Part shown: positions 6,875 to 63,607 of the stretch, in pieces
Layout: the number at the start of each line of letters is the position of its first letter
Position numbering within the stretch: position 1 is the stretch's first letter
Assembly (NCBI GenBank): GCA_964016885.1
Contig: OZ024759.1
Coordinates: 15,748,001-15,812,000, forward strand
DNA from: Eledone cirrhosa
Lineage: Eukaryota
Reading direction: 5' to 3'
Length of the DNA stretch: 64,000 bases
The notes under the pieces: generated by a model
Databases searched by the model: none
What the model was told of the DNA's origin: nothing
Seen by the model: the letters and a program-made list of their open reading frames with translations, nothing else
Position numbers and translations under genes: made by a program

Positions 6875-6919
<45 letters not shown>

Positions 6920-6924
<5 letters not shown>

Positions 6925-7116
6925 GGAACGAGTAGGACCCCGACGGCTGAGCTCAAGTCGTTACGACGGCTAATTCTGGACTGAATTAGCCGTCGAAACG
7001 GCTTGAGCTCAGCCGTCGGGGTTCTACTCGTTCCTATTACCCACTCTACTACCCTAAGTATTGAGTACTTTGGTGTGTTATGGTCCACCTGGTTCCTTAC
7101 CACATTTCTTTCGTTA
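6920..7116 (+). mobile_element. Fold-back PLE-like element (family F2) with hammerhead 3' half
   Basis: 57-bp inverted arms 6920-6976 and 6983-7039, 77-nt tail, GAAA-CGGCT-tgagctc-AGCCG-TC at 6995-7017, (TA)n flanks. Confidence 0.8.
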
Positions 7117-7157
7117 TATATATATACGTGTATATATATATATATATATATATATAC

Positions 7158-7188
<31 letters not shown>

Positions 7189-7191
<3 letters not shown>

Positions 7192-7322
7192 CGAAGGAAA
7201 TGTGGTAAGGAACCAGGTGGACCATAACGCACCAAAGTACTCGATACTTGAGGTAGTAGAGTGGGTAATAGGAACCAGTAAGTTCAGCTCAGTTGAGCTC
7301 AGCTGTCGGGGTCTTACTGGTT

Positions 7323-7327
<5 letters not shown>
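7189..7327 (-). mobile_element. Fold-back PLE-like element (family F2), opposite orientation
   Basis: Tail 7189-7267; arms 7268-7282 and 7313-7327; short arm ends at TTCCTAT. Confidence 0.75.
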
Positions 7328-7350
<23 letters not shown>

Positions 7351-7357
<7 letters not shown>

Positions 7358-40235: not shown

Positions 40236-41800
40236 AACGCCAAACACATCGAGGCAATCGGCACTACACTAAGAGAATACGAAGCGGTGACTGGAGCAAT
40301 GATCAACCAGGAAAAGTCGGTGGGCCTGCAGCTCGGCACTTGGAGAAGCAGGTCCATGCCGTCCAACAGCATCGTCGGGCGCTGGACGGACCGGTTAAAT
40401 TGCTAGGGGTCTGGACCTCCAGACGGACAAAAACTGGGACGATGTTACGAGCAGGATGGCTTCTTTCACCCAGAAATGGGCAGAGAGGAAGCTATCCCTA
40501 AAAGGTCGCGCGGAGGTAGCGAATGCGTACATCACGTCTGTCATCTACTACCGCTTGTTCTAAGCCTCGCCTGACTGCGCTGGAGCGTTTGCTCTTTCGC
40601 TTTTTGTGGAAGGGACGCGCTCCGATGGTCAGGCGGTCCATCTGCTGTCAACATCCGCTACGTGGAGGGCTGGGCATGCTGTAGCTGATGATGCGCAGAC
40701 ACGCGCTCATACTACGACATCTCCACCTCTTCCTCGACGGTGATGAGGTGTGGTCGCCGTTTGCAAGACGCGTCTTTCCCCAGCTCGTCTCCTTGACGGA
40801 TCTGCAGTCCTGGGTCAAGCGAAGACCGAGAGGGAGCGCTTGGAGACTGGAATGTCTTCAGGCGCTCACAGCCCTCGACCAGTCGGGCAATGTGATCGGT
40901 GGAAACTCCATCTTAGCGTTCTATAGAGGATTAGTGGAGGGGAAGAACGACGACGTACTTGGGGAAACTCTAGGCGTCGACGAAAATAAACTAGCCAATC
41001 TCTTCGGAAAAGCTTTCGCGACGGGGCCTATGGACAACTTCCAGAAATCACTGGCCTGGCAGTGCTACCGAGGAGCTTTGCCAATTCGGGATAAACTCTA
41101 TAGGCATAGAGGTACAGTCAGCCAGGCATGTCCAAGATGCGCGCAGGGCGACGAAACCGTTCTGCACGCACTCGTCCAGTGTCCGAGCATTGTTGACTTG
41201 TGGGTTTATGTCGAACATCTGCTGTCGCGTGTAGGATGGATCCGGCTATCAGCTGAGTCCATCGTGAGGATTTCCCCGCCCTCTTCCTTTAGCCGGGAAG
41301 GGCAGGAAGTTTTTATGTCTGGTGGCCATGGCGAAAGTAGTATGGTGGACGCGTATGAAAGGGCTGAAGACGAGAACTTACCTCTTCGGTGATACACGGA
41401 TTAACTTTTTCAAATTTCATTTGAGAAGGAAAATCAGGGTAGAGAGGGAAGTGCTCTCTTCCCAGCATTTTGTTGAAAGATGGGTGAGAGAGGCAAGAAT
41501 GGCCCAAGTGAATGGGCCTATTCTGAGTATATGCCTGTTAATTAAAGGTGGAAAACTGGGCGAGGGCACTTGCCCTGATGGTCAGGGTCGCCGTGGCTTT
41601 TTTAATGGGCTTTCTCCACGAATGTCCCTCGGAAGTCTCCCCACTATTGGGGAATTTTTCATTGTTTTTTTTTTGTTACATCTTCTGTTTTTGTTTTTTT
41701 TTACACGCAGAAATGCTCATTTGTACCGTCCTGTATTGTCCTGTGTTGTCCTTAATGTCTTACTTTGTGTAACCCCGTGTGGTCAATAAAGAAAGCATTA
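40236..41800 (+). mobile_element. 5'-truncated Tx1/L1-clade LINE (ORF2 C-terminal remnant with frameshifts)
   Basis: YEAVTGAMINQEKS, RKLSLKGRAEVAN, zf-RVT-like CPRC..ETVLHALVQC; 3' UTR with AATAAA at about 41785. Confidence 0.9.
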
Positions 41801-48494: not shown

Positions 48495-48660
48495 ATATAT
48501 ATATATATACATACATATATGCATACGTATATATACATACTCATATATACATACGTATATATACTCATATACATACGTATATATATATACTCATATATAC
48601 ATACTCATATATATATACTCATATATACATACTCATATATACATACTCATATATACATAT

Positions 48661-49059
48661 ATTGCTGATCCAGCAAAAATTAGGTATTAGTATTGGTGCT
48701 GTGAAATATCGATGTATACATGAATGTATGTATAGTATATTTGGCAATATACCGTATGTTTAATTAAAAACATTTTGAAGACCATACGCTATCGGTTTTA
48801 AAGTAGTGACTACGTCACTTCTTTTCTGCCAAAGAAGGGCGAGAAGCTGACAGTCTGTTTCACGCTGTTTGGCGATCATCAGAGCCACGCACTCCCGGCC
48901 TCCGCCGAAAATTATAGAAGCTGGATTCTTACAGTCACTACTTTAAAACCGATAGCGTATGGTCTTCAAAATGTTTTTAATTAAACATACGGTATATTGC
49001 CAAATATATTATACATACATTCATGTATACATCGCTATTTCAAAGCACCTATCCTAATA
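48661..49059 (-). mobile_element. Fold-back PLE-like element (F3) containing a complete hammerhead
   Basis: ~127-bp arms 48685-48811 and 48933-49059; short tail 48661-48684. Confidence 0.8.
48845..48886 (-). ncRNA. Complete minimal type-I hammerhead ribozyme motif
   Basis: GGCT-CTGATGA-TCGC caaaca GCGT-GAAA-CAG a CTG-TC-AGCT; GUC cleavage triplet. Confidence 0.85.
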
Positions 49060-49074
49060 TATATATATATATAT

Positions 49075-49263
49075 CACGATAAATTAACGGAGCCATAGAC
49101 TCGTTATTCGCTGTTAATAATGTGCTCAAAGGAAAAGGAATCCTGAGCTCTTTAAAATACAATATGTTGAAAAGGTAACTCACTAGAGAGAGATAGTGCG
49201 ACATCAATAAAATGGCGCACTATCTCTCTCTAGTGTGTTTCCTTTTCAACATATTGTATTTTA
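49075..49263 (-). mobile_element. Fold-back element (F4)
   Basis: 48-bp arms 49153-49200 and 49216-49263, tail 49075-49152, (TA)n flanks. Confidence 0.7.
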
Positions 49264-49316
49264 TGTATATATATATATATATACGTATAAACATATATAT
49301 ATATATACGTATAAAC

Positions 49317-49348
<32 letters not shown>

Positions 49349-49593
49349 TAGATATACGTATAAACATATATATAATATAGATAAACGTATATATGAGTAT
49401 ATATTATGAGACAGAGATAGACGGGTATATCTATTTGACTGTAGACAGATAGGTTGGTAGGTAAGTAAGTAGCAAGATATATTACTAGATAGATGAACTC
49501 ATTACTATGTCCAAGAGTATATAAGTTTATGTAGAAAAGAGATGAAACAAGAAAATAGTACGGCATCTACACACACATATGTGGGGGGGTGTA

Positions 49594-49628
<35 letters not shown>

Positions 49629-49879
49629 TAGTATTAAGGATACTATTTATGGTTATGTATATAATAAAACCTTTTATGGTTATATATTTTTTATATACAA
49701 ACCCCAAATAGTGAAAGATAGTCATCCATTACTATCTTATTACTAGTAAGATAAATAGCTCAATGTAATAACATATCATTATGATGGATGTCATCCCACT
49801 GTGGGTCAATATATGCATATGTTTTTATATGTCTCTTGTGTTGAAGAGGAGGTCAAGTATGTTATAGATCAATAAATAG

Positions 49880-49928
49880 TTGCTCCGAAGAATCCAAACC
49901 TCGGTTTGGAGGAAACAATTGTAAGCAA
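49880..49928 (+). ncRNA. Minimal hammerhead motif with a U4>C change
   Basis: TTGCT-CCGAAGA-aTCCAAAC ctcg GTTTGGAg-GAAA-CAATTG-TA-AGCAA, followed by AATAAA. Confidence 0.75.
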
Positions 49929-49988
49929 ATAAATGATTTAAACTGAACTTTGATTATTGTAATCTCTCTCTCTCTATATATATATATA

Positions 49989-50364
49989 GGGTGGGTAAAA
50001 TTTCCTAGATCCATGGACGAGTTCTCTCCAGCGGTCTCTGTCCTTCATCATTGCCGCCATGTCCTGAAGCACCCAGAAATCCGTGTCTGTCCTTAGGGCA
50101 TCAATATATATCAACCTCGGTCTCCCTCTTCTTGGACACTGACCACGAAACTCACTCAGATGGTGGATGGGTGCTACACGAAAACGCTGAGGATGGTTCT
50201 GAACATTAATCAGTATACACTGAGGATGAAAAACTCAGAGCCGTATGGGAGCCTCACAAAAGTCACCTCAAAAGTAACATAGAGGAGTGAGGTCAGCTGG
50301 ACATGCTCACCGACATTCAGAGTTGACACTGCACTTAGTGCTGTTGTGGGAGCCCCTACACGGA
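49989..50364. mobile_element. RTE-like LINE 3' fragment with 5' inversion
   Basis: 3' end on the minus strand (49989-50131); inverted upstream part on plus (50131-50364; WTLTTKLTQMVDGCYTKTLRMVLNINQY). Confidence 0.85.
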
Positions 50365-50413
50365 TATATATATATATAAGAAGAAATTAAAAGATGGTTA
50401 AGAAAGTTCCATG

Positions 50414-50484
50414 TATTTTATTATGCGCATTTCAAAAACAAATATCATCCTGGGACGATATTTGCGTTCTCATCAGATAAAATA
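50414..50484 (-). ncRNA. Complete hammerhead motif (family F5)
   Basis: TATTTTAT-CTGATGA-long stem II-GAAA-TGCGCA-TA-ATAAAATA. Confidence 0.85.
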
Positions 50485-50783
50485 GGGAGACATGATATGA
50501 AGCTTAAAAAAAACACTTGTAAGCAAGGTAGTGTCTAATCAACATATGATAAATAAATTTAAAAGGATATAGGAGATTGGAAAAAAGGAAAGGAAGAGGA
50601 GAAAAGTAAGGAAGAGGAAGAAAGGAAAAAAGAAAAAAAGAAGGAAAGGATAACGGAGGAAGAGTATAAGAAGGGGGAAGGAGAGAGAAAGAGGAGAGAA
50701 AGAGAGAGAGATAAACATTTAAACTGAGAAACGCTGTCTCCACAGAGAAATAACTGAAAAAACGGTTGTAAATTTGTAAATAA

Positions 50784-51653
50784 ACTAACAGCTGAGCCCG
50801 GTTGCACCCGGGGCCACTTTTTGTTAAGTTAATAATTTGAAAAATATTGAAAGTTTATTATAAAGAAGCAGTTTCAGGAAAAAAAATAGAAATATGCACT
50901 TGGGGTTGGACGGCGTACAATGAGAAATGGAGTGACGTGAAAAGCGTTGTTTATTAACAGCGAAATAGCAATGTCGATGATATGCAATTTGAAAAATACT
51001 ACTTACTGTTAGTGGTGGTTAACATGTATTAGAATTAAAATAAAAACACGCGTCCCCTCTTCGCAATTTAAGGGTTTTATTTCTTTTGATGGAAAACAGT
51101 GACCGTACTGCAGAATCGATTTCATAAAACGGTACTGTGAAAATGAAACGTACTGTAGAAGGCAACAGTTTATTAATCTGCATTTTCAAACTTGCATATC
51201 ATCGACATTGCTATTTCGCTGTTAATAAACAACGCTTTCCACGTCGCTCCACTTCTCATTGTACGCCGTCCAGCCCCTAGTGCATATTTCTATTTTTTTT
51301 CCTGAAACTGCTTCTTTATAATAAACTTTCAATAATATTTTTCAAATTATTGGTACTGTATGTTAACAGCGAAAGAACGTTGATGAGTTTAAAAATTTGT
51401 ATAAATTGTAAATAACTCATCCAAGTATTAGAACAGGGGGAAATAACTCACCGAACGCGATAGTAAAAAGACTGTTTGGGGACCCTAGGGCCCACATTTT
51501 TCAAGTTTGAGATTTGAAACCTCGTCTATTTGCTTCCTTGGCACTTTTTACATAAGTGTGTAAATTTTCATGTCCGTCCAACCACGTCTACTACCATTTA
51601 ACCGTGCACATCTGAATTTCAACCACCACCCATTTCACAAATATATATTAGAT
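50784..51653 (+). mobile_element. Helentron-associated (HINE)-like element with a 170-bp internal inverted repeat
   Basis: 5' ACTAAC plus CCCGG-ttgcac-CCGGG hairpin; 3' ATATATATTAGAT; arms at about 50831-50999 and 51180-51351. Confidence 0.6.
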
Positions 51654-51892
51654 TAAATAAATTAAGAAAATTGAAAGTTAATGCTTATGATTACAGATAT
51701 AGAAATTAAGTATACTATTTAGGGTTTAAATAGTGAAGGATTTATTAAGATGTGGAAACATTTATTAAAATGTATTATTAAGATAAAATAGAGTAAAATA
51801 AGAAGGTCAATGAAAATAAAATTAAATGATTTATAAGCTTTATTAAATGATTTATTGCTTTATTGCGCTACAATAAAACTCACCTCCTACAT

Positions 51893-51945
<53 letters not shown>

Positions 51946-51947
<2 letters not shown>

Positions 51948-52270
51948 AGTTAGAAACTCAAAATAATCTCTTACAATTAAATAGCTCAACGAAAGAGGTT
52001 TTTCTGAGCCGTGTAATATAATTGAATATAAAAGAGAGATAAACACAGATATAAACATACATGTGTTCAACTCAAAAGCTGACTGGGTGTTCCGGCAGTT
52101 GCCCAATATAGGTTTGTACTTCTTTTTCTTGATTTATTATTTTAAATTAAGTCTGGCAAACCATATTGTTAATAGTTAGTATTTGTTCACCCTAGCGAAC
52201 TTGGTCCCTTACGATTTGAACACATTTATGTTTATATCTGTGTTTATCTCCCTTTTATATTCAATTATAT
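51946..52270 (-). mobile_element. Fold-back element (F6)
   Basis: 55-bp arms 52016-52070 and 52216-52270, tail 51946-52015, (TA)n flanks. Confidence 0.7.
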
Positions 52271-52284
52271 ATATATATATATAT

Positions 52285-52798
52285 AATTGTTTGTAATATT
52301 CTTGATGTGATGTCTATATTGAATGAAAACAGACATTGTTATATTTGGGGTAGTCATTTTGCCAACTTTAGCAATAAAAACACATACATTTGCCTTTCAC
52401 TACGGCTTTATAATTATTAGGTTATTTTGTCAAAGCTTTTTCGTCACGCATCCTGTGACATCCTCATTAAGAAGAGTAGATACAAAGAAGAACAACAAAT
52501 AGTCATTGAAGAAGTCATATAATGTATGACGAAAGAACATTGACAAAATAACAACTAAAAACAAAGTCAAATAGTATGTGTGTATTTTTATTGGCAGAAA
52601 GACCATCTCCACACACATCTCTCTATATATGTACATATATACATAGGCGGTCACAGAATGTGCGACGAAAGAGCTCTGACAGTATATAAACAACCTTCCG
52701 GTTATCAAACCAACCAAACAAAAGTAAATTTATAATAAATTGAAGAGAAAACCAACAGATACGAGTGTTTTTATCGGCAACATGACCCTCCCAAAGTA

Positions 52799-52803
<5 letters not shown>
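52285..52803. mobile_element. Three copies (one inverted, two direct) of PLE-like family F7, each with a decayed hammerhead
   Basis: Motifs at 52429-52471 (-), 52502-52544 (+) and 52650-52680 (+). Confidence 0.65.
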
Positions 52804-52830
<27 letters not shown>

Positions 52831-52833
<3 letters not shown>

Positions 52834-53206
52834 TGATTAATGTTCAGAGCCATCCTCAGCATTCTTGTGTAGCACCCAACCACCATCTGAGTGAGTTTCT
52901 TGGTCAGTGTCCAAGTCTCAGACCCGTACAGAGCTGTATGGGAGCCTCCCAAAAGTCAGCTCAAATGTGACACAGGAGGAGACTGGGGTTAGCTGGACAT
53001 GCTCACCGACATCCATAGTTGACACTGCACTCAGTGTTCATGTGGGAGCCCCTGCATGGACACACTGGAAGAGGAAGACCGTGGTTAGCGTATGTTGATG
53101 CCCTAAGGACAGACACTGGTCTGTTGGAGATGCAGGACACGGCAGCGATAATGAGGGACAGAGACCGCTGGAGAGAACTCATGCATGGATCTCGGGAATT
53201 TTACCC
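52831..53206. mobile_element. RTE-like LINE 3' fragment with 5' inversion
   Basis: Minus 52831-52931 reads LYGSETWTLTKK...NINQY; plus 52929-53206 reads ELYGSLPKVS...GRGRP...MRDRDRWR. Confidence 0.88.
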
Positions 53207-53438
53207 GAGATCCATGCAGGAGTTCAAACGTCTACCTACGAGCCGTATTGTCAATGCATAGAAACTTTTGAGACACCCTGTATATATGTATAAAGACATA
53301 CATATATATAATCATGCATATATATAAACATACGTGTGCGGGTGTAAATATGTGCATAGGGGTATTATGTACAGTTTATATACTGAGTAAGATATTAGCA
53401 CACGCTCAGAACAGATGTGTGTTAATCCACACACACAC

Positions 53439-59334: not shown

Positions 59335-59700
59335 ATGACAGTATCGGGAGAGCGTCAGGCACCATGCTTTTCAGCATAGAGTTACAGCCCTTTATGCTCT
59401 GCGTTCAAATTCGCCGAGGTTAGCTTTGCCTTTCATAGTCTGACGATGCATGATTGATGCCTGAGCTGTGAAATCTTGCATGCATTAATTTCAACTCGTA
59501 TTATCAATAACTGGTGGATTTGGCAGTATCGGTAGAGGGTCGGACGCCATGCATTGCAGCACAGAGTTACGTCCCTTTACGGACTGAGTTCAAATCTCGC
59601 CGAGGTTAATTTTGCCTTTCATCCTTACGGGATCGATAAAATAAAGTACCAGTAATGCACTGATGTAATTGCTAGCCTTGTGCCAAAAGTAGAAATTATT
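59335..59700 (+). mobile_element. Two S1 SINE copies (59335-59436 partial; 59512-59700)
   Basis: Homologous to 14896-15082. Confidence 0.8.
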
Positions 59701-59711
59701 ATACTTTAGTG

Positions 59712-60030
59712 AAAGAGTATGGTTTAGTAGTTGGAGCGTTGGGTTTGCAATCGTGAGCTTGTCAGTTCGATGCCCAGACCGAGTGATGGGTTGTGTCCTT
59801 GAGCAAGACACTTTATTTCACGTTGCTCCAGTTTCCTCAGCTGTAGAAATGTGTTGCAACGTCACTGGTGCCAAGCTGCATCGGCCATTGCCTTTCCCTT
59901 GGACAAAATATGTGGGGTGGAGACTGGCATGCATGAGTGACTGCACACAAACAATCTTATCCGGACTCCAGGCTTGGAAAGAACTTTCTCCGTACAAAAC
60001 CCATGGTCATTCGTGACCGAAGTAGGTCTT
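59712..60030 (+). mobile_element. SINE family S2, near full-length
   Basis: tRNA-like head, TGTGTCCTTGAGCAAGACACT core, 3' region ending cgtgaccgaag..ggtctt. Confidence 0.8.
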
Positions 60031-60033
60031 TGC

Positions 60034-60089
<56 letters not shown>

Positions 60090-60209
60090 CAGGTGAGTTT
60101 TATTGTAGCACAATAAAGCAATGCAAATATCGGATAAGTAGCACTCTACAGTTTGTAAGACCGGAGTATAAATAATATAAGATCAAAAGATGGTTAAAAG
60201 AGTTCCAAG

Positions 60210-60280
60210 TATTTTATTATGCGCATTTCAAAAACAAATATCATCATGGGATGATATCTGCGTTCTCATCAGATAAAATA
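60210..60280 (-). ncRNA. Complete hammerhead motif (F5)
   Basis: 8-bp stem I, CTGATGA, ~15-bp stem II, GAAA, palindromic ATGCGCAT stem III, AUA triplet. Confidence 0.88.
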
Positions 60281-60408
60281 GGGAGACATGATATGAAGCT
60301 TAAAAAACAGTTGTGAGCAGTGAAGTTTTAAATCTTCAGTGAAGTTTTAAATCTTGATTTAAAAGTTCACTGCTCACAAGTGTTTTTTAAGCTTCATACC
60401 AGTCTCCC

Positions 60409-60479
60409 TATTTTATCTGATGAGAACGCAGATAACATCCCATGATGATATTTGTTTTTGAAATGCGCATAATAAAATA
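60409..60479 (+). ncRNA. Complete hammerhead motif (F5)
   Basis: TATTTTAT-CTGATGA-GAACGCAGATAACATC ccat GATGATATTTGTTTTT-GAAA-TGCGCA-TA-ATAAAATA. Confidence 0.88.
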
Positions 60480-60541
60480 CTTGGAACTCTTTTAACCATC
60501 TTTTGATCTTATATTAAATATATATATATATATATGTATAT

Positions 60542-60744
60542 ATATGAAAACATTCAGGACCCCGACGGCGGAGCTCGGGCCGTTTCGACAGCTAGATCCG
60601 AACAGTTCGGATATAGCTGCCGAAAAGGCCGGAGTTCAGCCGTCGGGTTCCTGAATCTTTTCATATTACCCACTCTACCACCCCAAGTATCGAGTACTCT
60701 GGTGGGTTATGGAGCACCTGATATATTACCACACCCTCTCTAAC
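60542..60744 (+). mobile_element. Fold-back element, F2 subfamily b
   Basis: Arms 60542-60603 and 60605-60666; tail homologous to the F2 tail. Confidence 0.75.
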
Positions 60745-60764
60745 ATATATATATGTATATATGT

Positions 60765-61164
60765 AGAAGTTATATTTAATTTGTTGGTATACAACAAGCA
60801 AATATTTTTATAACTGATATAAAGCACTCAACAAATTTTTGGATTAAAAATACAATATATTAATAAATGGAAACTATATTTATAAAACCATATTTATTTC
60901 ATTATACATATTTCAAGGACACCAAAGCAAATTATGGTGCGCTTTCATCAAATAAATTATAATATAGATCAGTTTTATAATCCGGGAGCTTCCAACCAAC
61001 ATGGTCGCATTCTTTAAGGGTATGTCAATATTTGTTTATAAAACTGATCTATATTATATTTTATCTGATGAAAGCGCACCATAATTTGCTTTGGTGTCCT
61101 TGAAATATGTATAATGAAATAAATTATGGTTTTATAAATAAAGTTTCCATTTGTTAATATATTG

Positions 61165-61166
<2 letters not shown>
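60765..61166 (-). mobile_element. Fold-back PLE-like element (F8) with a hammerhead in each arm
   Basis: Arms 60851-60980 and 61036-61166; tail 60765-60850 matches 56170-56260; left-arm core is mutated (TTGATGA). Confidence 0.8.
61057..61121 (+). ncRNA. Complete hammerhead motif (F8)
   Basis: TATTTTAT-CTGATGA-AAGCGCACCA..TGGTGTCCTT-GAAA-TATGTA-TA-ATGAAATA. Confidence 0.82.
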
Positions 61167-61203
<37 letters not shown>

Positions 61204-61208
<5 letters not shown>

Positions 61209-61392
61209 AACGAGTAGGACCCCGACGGCTGAGCTCAAGCCGTTTCGACGGCTAATTCTCAGAATTAGCCGTCGAAACGGCTTGAGCTCAGCCGTCGGGG
61301 TCCTACTCGTTCCTATTACCCACTCTACTACCCTAAGTATTGAGTACTTTGGTGTGTTATGGTCCACCTGGTTCCCTACCACATTTCCTTCG

Positions 61393-61395
<3 letters not shown>
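61204..61395 (+). mobile_element. Fold-back element (F2) with a perfect 56-bp palindrome
   Basis: 61204-61259 is the exact reverse complement of 61261-61316; 79-nt tail; (TA)n flanks. Confidence 0.85.
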
Positions 61396-61472
<77 letters not shown>

Positions 61473-63152: not shown

Positions 63153-63161
<9 letters not shown>

Positions 63162-63607
63162 TAAAAAAATAATGAATAAAACAATGAAACAGTTCCTTAT
63201 ATTAAACAAAAAGTTCATTATTTAACGATCGTTTCTAGGACATATATGTGTTAGAATTGGCATGCATATTCAACAGATCTATGTACAAAATTATACAAAA
63301 TTATACAAACTATCAAATAGAATATACATACCAACACATACATATGCCGTCTTCAGAAATAATCAATTCTAACACATATATGTCCTAGAAACGATCGTTA
63401 AATAATGAACTTTTTTTGTTTAATATAAGGAACTGTTTCATTGTTTTATTCATTATTTTTTTAATATTTTATCTTGACTCTGTATTCCGTTTATCTTTCA
63501 CCGAAAGTGATTTTTGAATGCATCTCTTCTTTCCATGATATCCGGATTACATTGAGTTCTTCATACGGATTGGACACTACCGTAAACTTTTGGTAGATTT
63601 ATCTACA
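63153..63607 (+). mobile_element. Fold-back PLE-like element (F9)
   Basis: ~108-bp arms 63153-63259 and 63364-63472, tail 63473-63607, (TA)n flanks. Confidence 0.8.
63217..63363 (-). ncRNA. Hammerhead motif with a greatly extended stem II
   Basis: ATTATTT-CTGAAGA-[114-nt imperfect hairpin]-GAAA-CGATCG-TT-AAATAAT. Confidence 0.78.

What the first reader, a model, noticed from the sequence alone, without database searches (positions are those of the whole stretch)
60037..61472. Insertion hotspot: one (TA)n tract split by four consecutive fold-back elements
F5, F2b, F8 and F2 follow each other, separated only by TA-rich runs. This puts four hammerhead motifs and four long palindromes in 1.4 kb. 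A similar chain spans about 48660-53300. Inference: insertions preserve or regenerate TA targets, creating self-reinforcing clusters that could be cruciform-prone and produce dsRNA or ADAR substrates.
Basis: partly seen in the sequence, partly recalled or inferred. Interest (0 to 1): 0.7.

Follow-up and report, generated by a model that had tools for sequence, protein, structure and literature searches.

The report
Penelope retrotransposon ends stacked in TA
Four mirror-image fragments of Penelope-type jumping genes sit side by side in a TA repeat, likely from four separate landings at different times, and such pile-ups are no more common than these elements' liking for long TA repeats would predict, so the spot is ordinary rather than a self-feeding hotspot.

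Summary
The chain is real: four fold-back elements separated by 19-36 nt TA spacers. Each is the 5'-truncated, inverted-duplicated 3' end (pLTR, hammerhead region, one-sided tail) of a Hydra-clade Penelope-like retrotransposon; I found ORF-bearing parents for all three families, one with an unbroken 742-aa ORF. They are not a composite: 0 of 106 other loci repeat the quartet, and arm-to-arm divergence (0/56, 4/126, 6/167, 8/60) points to different insertion dates. All four hammerhead motifs lie in F5 and F8 (one has a broken core); F2 and F2b hold only half a motif. The self-reinforcing hotspot idea is not supported. In 1.12 Mb of random genome, shared TA tracts (13) match fixed-target nulls weighted by TA length (11-16 expected), while length-weighted self-reinforcing models over-predict (20-57). 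A mild excess over a uniform null remains (8.6 expected, p=0.08). Tens to hundreds of four-chains are expected genome-wide, and I saw another. Cruciform, dsRNA and ADAR effects are untested. The more interesting side result is that arm geometry favours two cDNAs primed from both ends of the TA break; this scan had already noted that on other DNA of this genome.

The parts
60036..60088 (.). Left (TA)n run, about 52 nt, at the 3' end of a SINE-like repeat (about 59690-60035)
60090..60515 (-). F5: fold-back 3' end of a Hydra-clade PLE. Tail 60090-60166, tailed arm to about 60345, tail-less inverted arm to about 60515; minimal type I hammerhead in both arms
60516..60545 (.). TA spacer 1 (30 nt, partly decayed), between the tail-less ends of F5 and F2b
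60546..60746 (+). F2b: fold-back 3' end of an F2-type Hydra PLE subfamily; turn lies in hammerhead stem II so the 5' core is absent; tail at right; most diverged arms (8/60)
60747..60765 (.). TA spacer 2 (19 nt, decayed), between the tails of F2b and F8
60766..61170 (-). F8: fold-back 3' end of a Hydra PLE. Tail 60766-60850; the tail-less arm reaches 56 nt further 5' into the parent than the tailed arm; hammerhead intact in right arm, C3 to T in left arm
61171..61206 (.). TA spacer 3 (36 nt, nearly pure)
61207..61396 (+). F2: youngest element (arms 0/56 mismatches; 95-97% to 39 other scored copies); half hammerhead; 78-nt tail at right
61393..61472 (.). Right (TA)n run, about 80 nt
50371..51890 (-). 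Longer F5-family copy in the second chain: long tail-less arm running into parent pLTR sequence, a low-copy insert, and a short tailed end; used to find F5 parents

Best explanation
The stretch is a stack of four truncated, mirror-duplicated 3' ends of Hydra-clade Penelope-like retrotransposons from three families, likely inserted one after another into the same TA-rich spot because their enzyme is reported to prefer (TA)n. Steps. (1) Shown: each element matches the pLTR of an ORF-bearing parent elsewhere in the genome. (2) From the literature: the GIY-YIG/RT protein cuts AT-rich DNA on both strands and starts reverse transcription at two internal RNA sites that bound the tail. (3) Inferred: each cut end primes its own cDNA, one from the tail end and one from the tail start; both stop early and are joined head to head, giving a palindrome with a one-sided tail. 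(4) Shown: TA remains on both sides, so the spot stays a target. (5) Shown within the limits of a 1.12-Mb sample: pile-ups are as frequent as TA-length-weighted targeting predicts, so this four-chain is an upper-tail outcome, not a special hotspot. Likely order from arm divergence: F2b first, F5 and F8 next, F2 last.
For: Parents: L124 is pLTR-ORF-pLTR between TA runs. L304 has an unbroken 742-aa ORF with F8-type repeats on both sides, about 80-82% to window F8. Hydra-type ORF hits lie within 1.5 kb of 17 of 29 F5-parent loci and 16 of 25 F2-parent loci, against 22 of 112 random 10-kb stretches. The ORF has RWR, DKT, YRDD, CxCx5C, CxxC and CxH, as in the Hydra definition, and by eye follows Hydra-1_Obim block by block. 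Not a composite: 0 of 106 non-self loci show the quartet; L004 holds a four-chain in another order. Different ages. Clustering. Two cDNAs: 109 of 114 fold-backs have one tailed and one tail-less end; the tail-less arm reaches further 5' in 60 of 109, the tailed arm in 14, 35 are symmetric; in L187, L190 and L200 the tailed arm is too short to have templated the other arm; both arms share copy-specific variants 5-6 times above the cross-copy level and no arm-fixed differences exist.
Against: No empty site or polymorphism was seen, so sequential splitting of one tract is inferred. A 1.7-fold excess of shared tracts over the average side occupancy is present (26 of 185 flanks, 0.141 against 0.080, p=0.006), and a uniform-weight self-reinforcing model also fits (16.0 expected against 13). 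The test rests on 13 events, and summed TA length is circular if insertion adds TA. No tree was built; Pfam and PDB gave no significant match to the parent ORF. The F8 arm counts are biased because those copies were picked by likeness to the window copy. Arm-shared variants could also come from later gene conversion. Arm divergence counts are small, so F5 and F8 cannot be ordered.
Confidence: 0.85

Rival explanations
1. Self-reinforcing hotspot: each insertion adds TA or otherwise raises the chance of the next insertion, so chains grow faster than TA content predicts.
For: Both flanks keep TA (185 of 210). Shared tracts are 1.7 times the average side occupancy. A uniform-weight model in which each daughter tract is a full target gives 16.0 against 13 observed. 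Tracts beside one element are longer than empty tracts (median 37.5 against 22 nt).
Against: Occupancy rises with TA length (0.047 to 0.342 per site). Once length is weighted, fixed-target models fit (11.0, 13.2, 16.0) and self-reinforcing ones over-predict (20.4, p=0.055; 23.7, p=0.005; 28.7; 57.0). The random sample held 118 singles, 11 pairs, 1 triple and no four-chain.
Confidence: 0.2
2. The palindromes arise by self-priming: one cDNA folds back and copies itself (or an antisense template self-primes, as proposed for rotifer Penelope elements), rather than two cDNAs being primed from both ends of the break.
For: Many F2 turns fall in the stem II hairpin and 35 of 109 fold-backs are symmetric. 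Arms share variants. PMC3846280 reads such palindromes as self-priming (passages).
Against: The tail-less arm often holds parent sequence that the tailed arm lacks (60 of 109; 8 of 16 F2 copies outside the searched-for sets), including three copies with no overlap at all. Its end sits at a fixed position (-78 in 52 of 65 F2 copies), matching a second RT start site as in PMC11167929.
Confidence: 0.25
3. The four elements travel as one composite repeat, or are non-autonomous fold-back DNA elements (MITE-like) amplified from fixed palindromic masters.
For: L002 has F5 followed by an F2b-type copy in the same orientation as in the window.
Against: That copy is only 82% like window F2b and nothing follows it. 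0 of 106 loci repeat the quartet. Fold-back junctions differ from copy to copy (78 distinct of 109) and there are no arm-fixed differences. The sequences continue into PLE ORFs.
Confidence: 0.02

Closest known systems
Hydra clade of Penelope-like elements, including Hydra-1_Obim (Craig et al. 2021, PMC8557442; seen: abstract, outline, section 11, passages, supplement part 2 and alignment rows)
   Same: Short single-ORF elements with RWK-like, DKT, CxCx5C, CxxC and CxH motifs, hammerhead in the pLTR, insertion into (TA)n, inverted 5'-truncated copies, one-sided tail.
   Different: The hammerhead stems of F5, F8 and F2 differ from the listed Hydra-1_oBim motif, so these are other families. Tails here are 76-85 nt against the 30-40 bp stated for PLEs in general. 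The paper calls Hydra a small set of families; here the ends are very abundant (83 merged hits per Mb for three families).
PAc Poseidon element of the green anole in vitro (Frangieh et al. 2024, PMC11167929; seen: parts 1-2 of 4, whole results text)
   Same: Cuts and extends both strands of AT-rich DNA; two RT start sites bound the tail. This matches the fixed long and short ends seen here.
   Different: Different clade, and the paper does not show how head-to-head palindromes form or address clustering.
Minimal hammerheads of metazoan PLEs (Cervera and de la Pena 2014, PMC4209133; seen: passages)
   Same: Minimal type I motifs with palindromic short helix III, often as opposite-strand pairs 100-700 bp apart in truncated PLEs; a U3-A8 core variant like that of many F2 parents.
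   Different: No cleavage was tested here; F2 and F2b in the window have lost the 5' half of the core.
Animal non-LTR retrozymes (bioRxiv 10.64898/2026.07.22.740005; seen: part 1 of 5)
   Same: Type I hammerhead, PLE-related, non-coding copies.
   Different: Retrozymes are head-to-tail arrays with a hammerhead in each unit; these four are single head-to-head truncations of coding parents.

Membership tests
Penelope-like elements (EN+) | Single ORF with RT followed by a GIY-YIG-type endonuclease, linked to these ends | tested here: met
   742-aa open frame in L304 flanked by F8-type repeats; YRDD and downstream nuclease-like region match Hydra-1_Obim by eye; ORF hits beside 17 of 29 F5 and 16 of 25 F2 parent loci. 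Pfam gave no significant hit.
Penelope-like elements (EN+) | pLTRs in tandem or inverted, with an inverted 5'-truncated copy | tested here: met
   Direct pLTRs 3.8 kb apart in L124; head-to-head copies in 114 fold-backs.
Penelope-like elements (EN+) | One-sided tail extension | tested here: met
   109 of 114 fold-backs have one tailed and one tail-less end; length 76-85 nt, longer than the 30-40 bp in the literature.
Penelope-like elements (EN+) | Hammerhead motif in the pLTR | tested here: met
   F5 and F8 cores; F2 parents have a core with A at position 8, mostly U3-A8 (39 of 43 matches) and C3-A8 in 4. Cleavage not tested.
Hydra clade | RWK, DKT, CxCx5C linker, CxxC and CxH motifs | tested here: met
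   F8 parent: RWR, DKT, CNCRDRSKC, CDLC, CRH. F2 parents: DKT, CxCx5C, CxxC, CxH. ORF pieces near an F5 parent: CxCx5C, RWK, DKT.
Hydra clade | Absence of the CCHH motif in the endonuclease | tested here: inconclusive
   Not scored formally; the region resembles Hydra-1_Obim by eye.
Hydra clade | Insertion into (TA)n | tested here: met
   185 of 210 flanks of 105 copies adjoin a TA run of 10 nt or more.
Hydra clade | RT groups with Hydra families in a phylogeny | not tested
   No reference Hydra proteins were available as session sequences.
Non-LTR retrozymes | Head-to-tail tandem units each with a full hammerhead, no coding parent body | tested here: not met
   Single head-to-head fold-backs; sequences run into PLE ORFs.
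MITE / fold-back DNA transposon | Fixed internal structure copied from a master, symmetric termini | tested here: not met
   78 distinct junctions in 109 copies, asymmetric ends, no arm-fixed differences.

The most novel reading that the evidence does not exclude
Every Penelope-like insertion here is built from two cDNAs, primed from both ends of a cut TA repeat at the two fixed RNA sites that bound the tail. This has seeded the genome with on the order of 10^5 self-dating palindromes whose arm divergence records the order of insertion, and stacks like this one give a layered record of retrotransposon waves and a reservoir of perfect-hairpin RNA for editing.
Probability: 0.55. Interest if true: 0.55.

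Novelty: new member of a known kind. Interest (0 to 1): 0.27.

Why it matters
As a locus it matters little: it is one of an expected tens to hundreds of four-element stacks. It shows that a PLE clade described from a handful of families is a major repeat class in this genome, mostly as short palindromic ends that Rfam and Pfam miss. The end geometry gives genomic support for a two-ended priming mechanism, an open point of PLE biology that can be tested in vitro with the intact parent ORF. If many such palindromes are transcribed, they would be a large source of double-stranded RNA, but that is not shown.

Tried and rejected
Rfam at gathering score: no match in the window. Pfam GIY-YIG search of the genome found many nuclease hits, but none of the 30 fetched loci was a parent of these families; two had unrelated F2 insertions and two had Hydra-like ORF hits. 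Pfam and PDB did not recognise the parent ORF; the ESM Atlas gave no result. The within-region permutation null was set aside because it is biased upward: each element supplies both a left and a right label. The geometric estimate (about 560-610 four-chains) counts elements differently and serves only as an upper guide. Sequencing runs: no RNA holder listed; this is no evidence on expression. The random sample could not be enlarged beyond 112 stretches. The arm-sharing test failed for F2 (1 copy passed the filter). Searches for prior work on TA-tract pile-ups, cephalopod Penelope hammerheads and twin priming in PLEs listed no title on those points beyond the papers cited; I saw listings only, and subscription journals are not covered.

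Full report
Setting. The window lies on contig C20 of a 3.0-Gb genome, is 31% G+C and is dense in microsatellites. An octopod host is my inference from the repeat content and the likeness to Hydra-1_Obim; I did not try to identify the record.

Observation. Four fold-back elements follow each other at 60090-60515 (F5), 60546-60746 (F2b), 60766-61170 (F8) and 61207-61396 (F2), with TA-rich spacers of 30, 19 and 36 nt. Each is a palindrome plus a 76-85 nt tail on one side; orientations alternate (minus, plus, minus, plus). A hammerhead scan finds intact minimal type I cores at 60272 (minus), 60417 and 61065. The F8 left arm has C3 changed to T. F2 and F2b turn inside stem II and keep only the 3' half of the motif. 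The motif scan gave 71 hits in 1.12 Mb of random genome and 0 in the reversed sequence. The second chain at 48660-53300 is looser than claimed, with LINE-like and low-copy DNA between elements.

Dispersed families, not a composite. Genome searches returned 1215, 2357, 2321 and 4150 candidates for F5, F8, F2 and F2b, 40 scored each. In 100 random 10-kb stretches there were 50 F2-type, 27 F8-type and 6 F5-type merged hits, roughly 10^5, 10^5 and 10^4 copies by extrapolation; long copies may count twice. The random positions were drawn from minimum contig lengths of 26 large contigs, so distal parts of those contigs, other chromosomes and small contigs are missing. Of 110 fetched loci, 4 were the window itself; none of the other 106 repeats the quartet. 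L002 has F5 plus an 82% F2b-type copy only. L004 holds a four-chain in another order.

Parents. L124 contains pLTR-ORF-pLTR between TA runs, with F8-type pLTRs 3.8 kb apart. A search with its C-terminal 196 aa gave 67,201 candidates, 150 scored at 94-100%. L304 has an unbroken 742-aa frame with F8-type repeats on both sides. Loci picked with sequence upstream of F5 or F2 had ORF hits in 17 of 29 and 16 of 25 cases, against 22 of 112 random 10-kb stretches. The F2 parent stretch matched 39 other scored copies at 99%, a sign of recent activity. The ORF carries RWR, DKT, YRDD, CxCx5C, CxxC and CxH, the marks of the Hydra clade, which is reported to insert into (TA)n (PMC8557442 section 11; Hydra-1_Obim in its supplement). 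No tree was built, and Pfam and PDB gave no significant match.

How a fold-back forms. Of 114 fold-backs mapped on parent coordinates, 109 have one tailed and one tail-less end, with 78 distinct junctions. The tail-less end is fixed (-78 in 52 of 65 F2 copies). The tail-less arm reaches further 5' in 60, the tailed arm in 14, and 35 are symmetric. The F8 set (30 of 31) is biased by selection; among 16 F2 copies from random and neighbouring stretches the split is 8, 1 and 7. In L187, L190 and L200 the tailed arm ends before the other arm's sequence begins, so it cannot have been its template. Both arms of a copy share private variants (F5 2.40 per copy against 0.42 across copies, 10 copies; F8 0.82 against 0.16, 28 copies) and there are no arm-fixed differences (all). 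With the in vitro finding that a PLE protein cuts and extends both strands and starts at two sites bounding the tail (PMC11167929), I infer two cDNAs joined head to head. Self-priming (PMC3846280, passages) remains a rival for symmetric copies. This scan had reached the same reading on other DNA; I had formed it before that look-up (note) and tested it afterwards.

Order of arrival. Arm mismatches are F2 0/56, F8 4/126, F5 6/167 (two at the TA border) and F2b 8/60. Best relatives are 97%, 96%, 94% and 90% identical. The spacers next to F2b are the most decayed. This suggests F2b first, F5 and F8 next, F2 last; counts are small.

Is it a hotspot? With a library of 17 hammerhead-bearing end groups, 190 of 2368 TA-tract sides in 112 random stretches adjoin such an end (0.080). 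Thirteen tracts have one on both sides against 7.6 under independence (p=0.046), and 26 of 185 flanks of the searched copies do (0.141, p=0.006). Shared tracts are short (median 22-23.5 nt against 35-37.5), as expected from splitting. After rejoining tracts into 1137 original sites with 143 insertions (1007 empty, 118 single, 11 double, 1 triple), occupancy rises with TA length from 0.047 to 0.342 per site. The 13 extra insertions compare with fixed-target expectations of 8.6 (uniform, p=0.077), 11.0, 13.2, 16.0 and 24.1 for increasing length weight. Self-reinforcing expectations are 16.0 (fits), 20.4 (p=0.055), 23.7 (p=0.005), 28.7 and 57.0. So preference for long TA tracts is enough, strong self-reinforcement is disfavoured, and a weak form is not excluded. 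Caveats: 13 events, and summed length is circular if insertion adds TA. The four milder fixed-target nulls give 0.008-0.17 four-chains per 1.12 Mb, about 20-460 in the genome. The window has 28 TA tracts per 10 kb against a mean of 10.6, and this site's summed TA of about 200 nt puts it in the top length class.

Downstream effects. The stretch folds into four long hairpins in silico, which follows from its sequence. I have no evidence on transcription, editing or cruciform extrusion.

Papers seen. PMC8557442: abstract, outline, section 11, passages, parts of the supplement. PMC11167929: parts 1-2 of 4. PMC3846280, PMC4209133 and PMC13282606: passages. bioRxiv 2026.07.22.740005: part 1 of 5; its supplements are closed and might list related families.

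Verdict. A real but ordinary upper-tail stack of new Hydra-clade PLE family ends. The hotspot inference is not needed. Interest 0.27.

Noticed in passing
L321-L345, L126, L306, L307, L314 (F2 parents): The F2 parent hammerhead has a long stem II and a core with A at position 8: U3-A8 in 39 of 43 matches, C3-A8 in 4. U3-A8 is a known PLE variant.
   Followed up: partly
window 60130, 60817, 60683, 61335 approx.; other families: A short GAGY(A/G)C(T/C)-type motif lies 50-77 nt from the 3' end in six end groups, and a similar word stands near the 3' end of coral Hydra-2_Amil; a candidate RT recognition site.
   Followed up: partly
L304:3268-5493 (-), G000 C3: Hydra-type PLE with an unbroken 742-aa frame and pLTRs on both sides; several other copies have open frames of 730-780 aa.
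   Followed up: partly
L004:349-1928: Another four-element chain (F2-type, F8-type, F5 fragment, F5) joined by TA-rich spacers, in a different order.
   Followed up: yes
L148 (hits at 206, 680, 1154) and L144, L183: A hammerhead repeating at 474-nt spacing, a retrozyme-like tandem array.
   Followed up: no
window 50831-51351: Low-copy insert with 169-nt inverted ends (95%) inside the long F5 copy; possibly a MITE-like element.
   Followed up: no
window 63153-63472 and 48663-49059: Further fold-back elements of other families beside TA runs; the second carries a hammerhead core at 48882.
   Followed up: partly
window 40685-41786: LINE fragment with a zf-RVT domain (E 3.4e-8).
   Followed up: no
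window 6879-7354: Two F2 copies tail to tail across a 76-nt TA run.
   Followed up: partly
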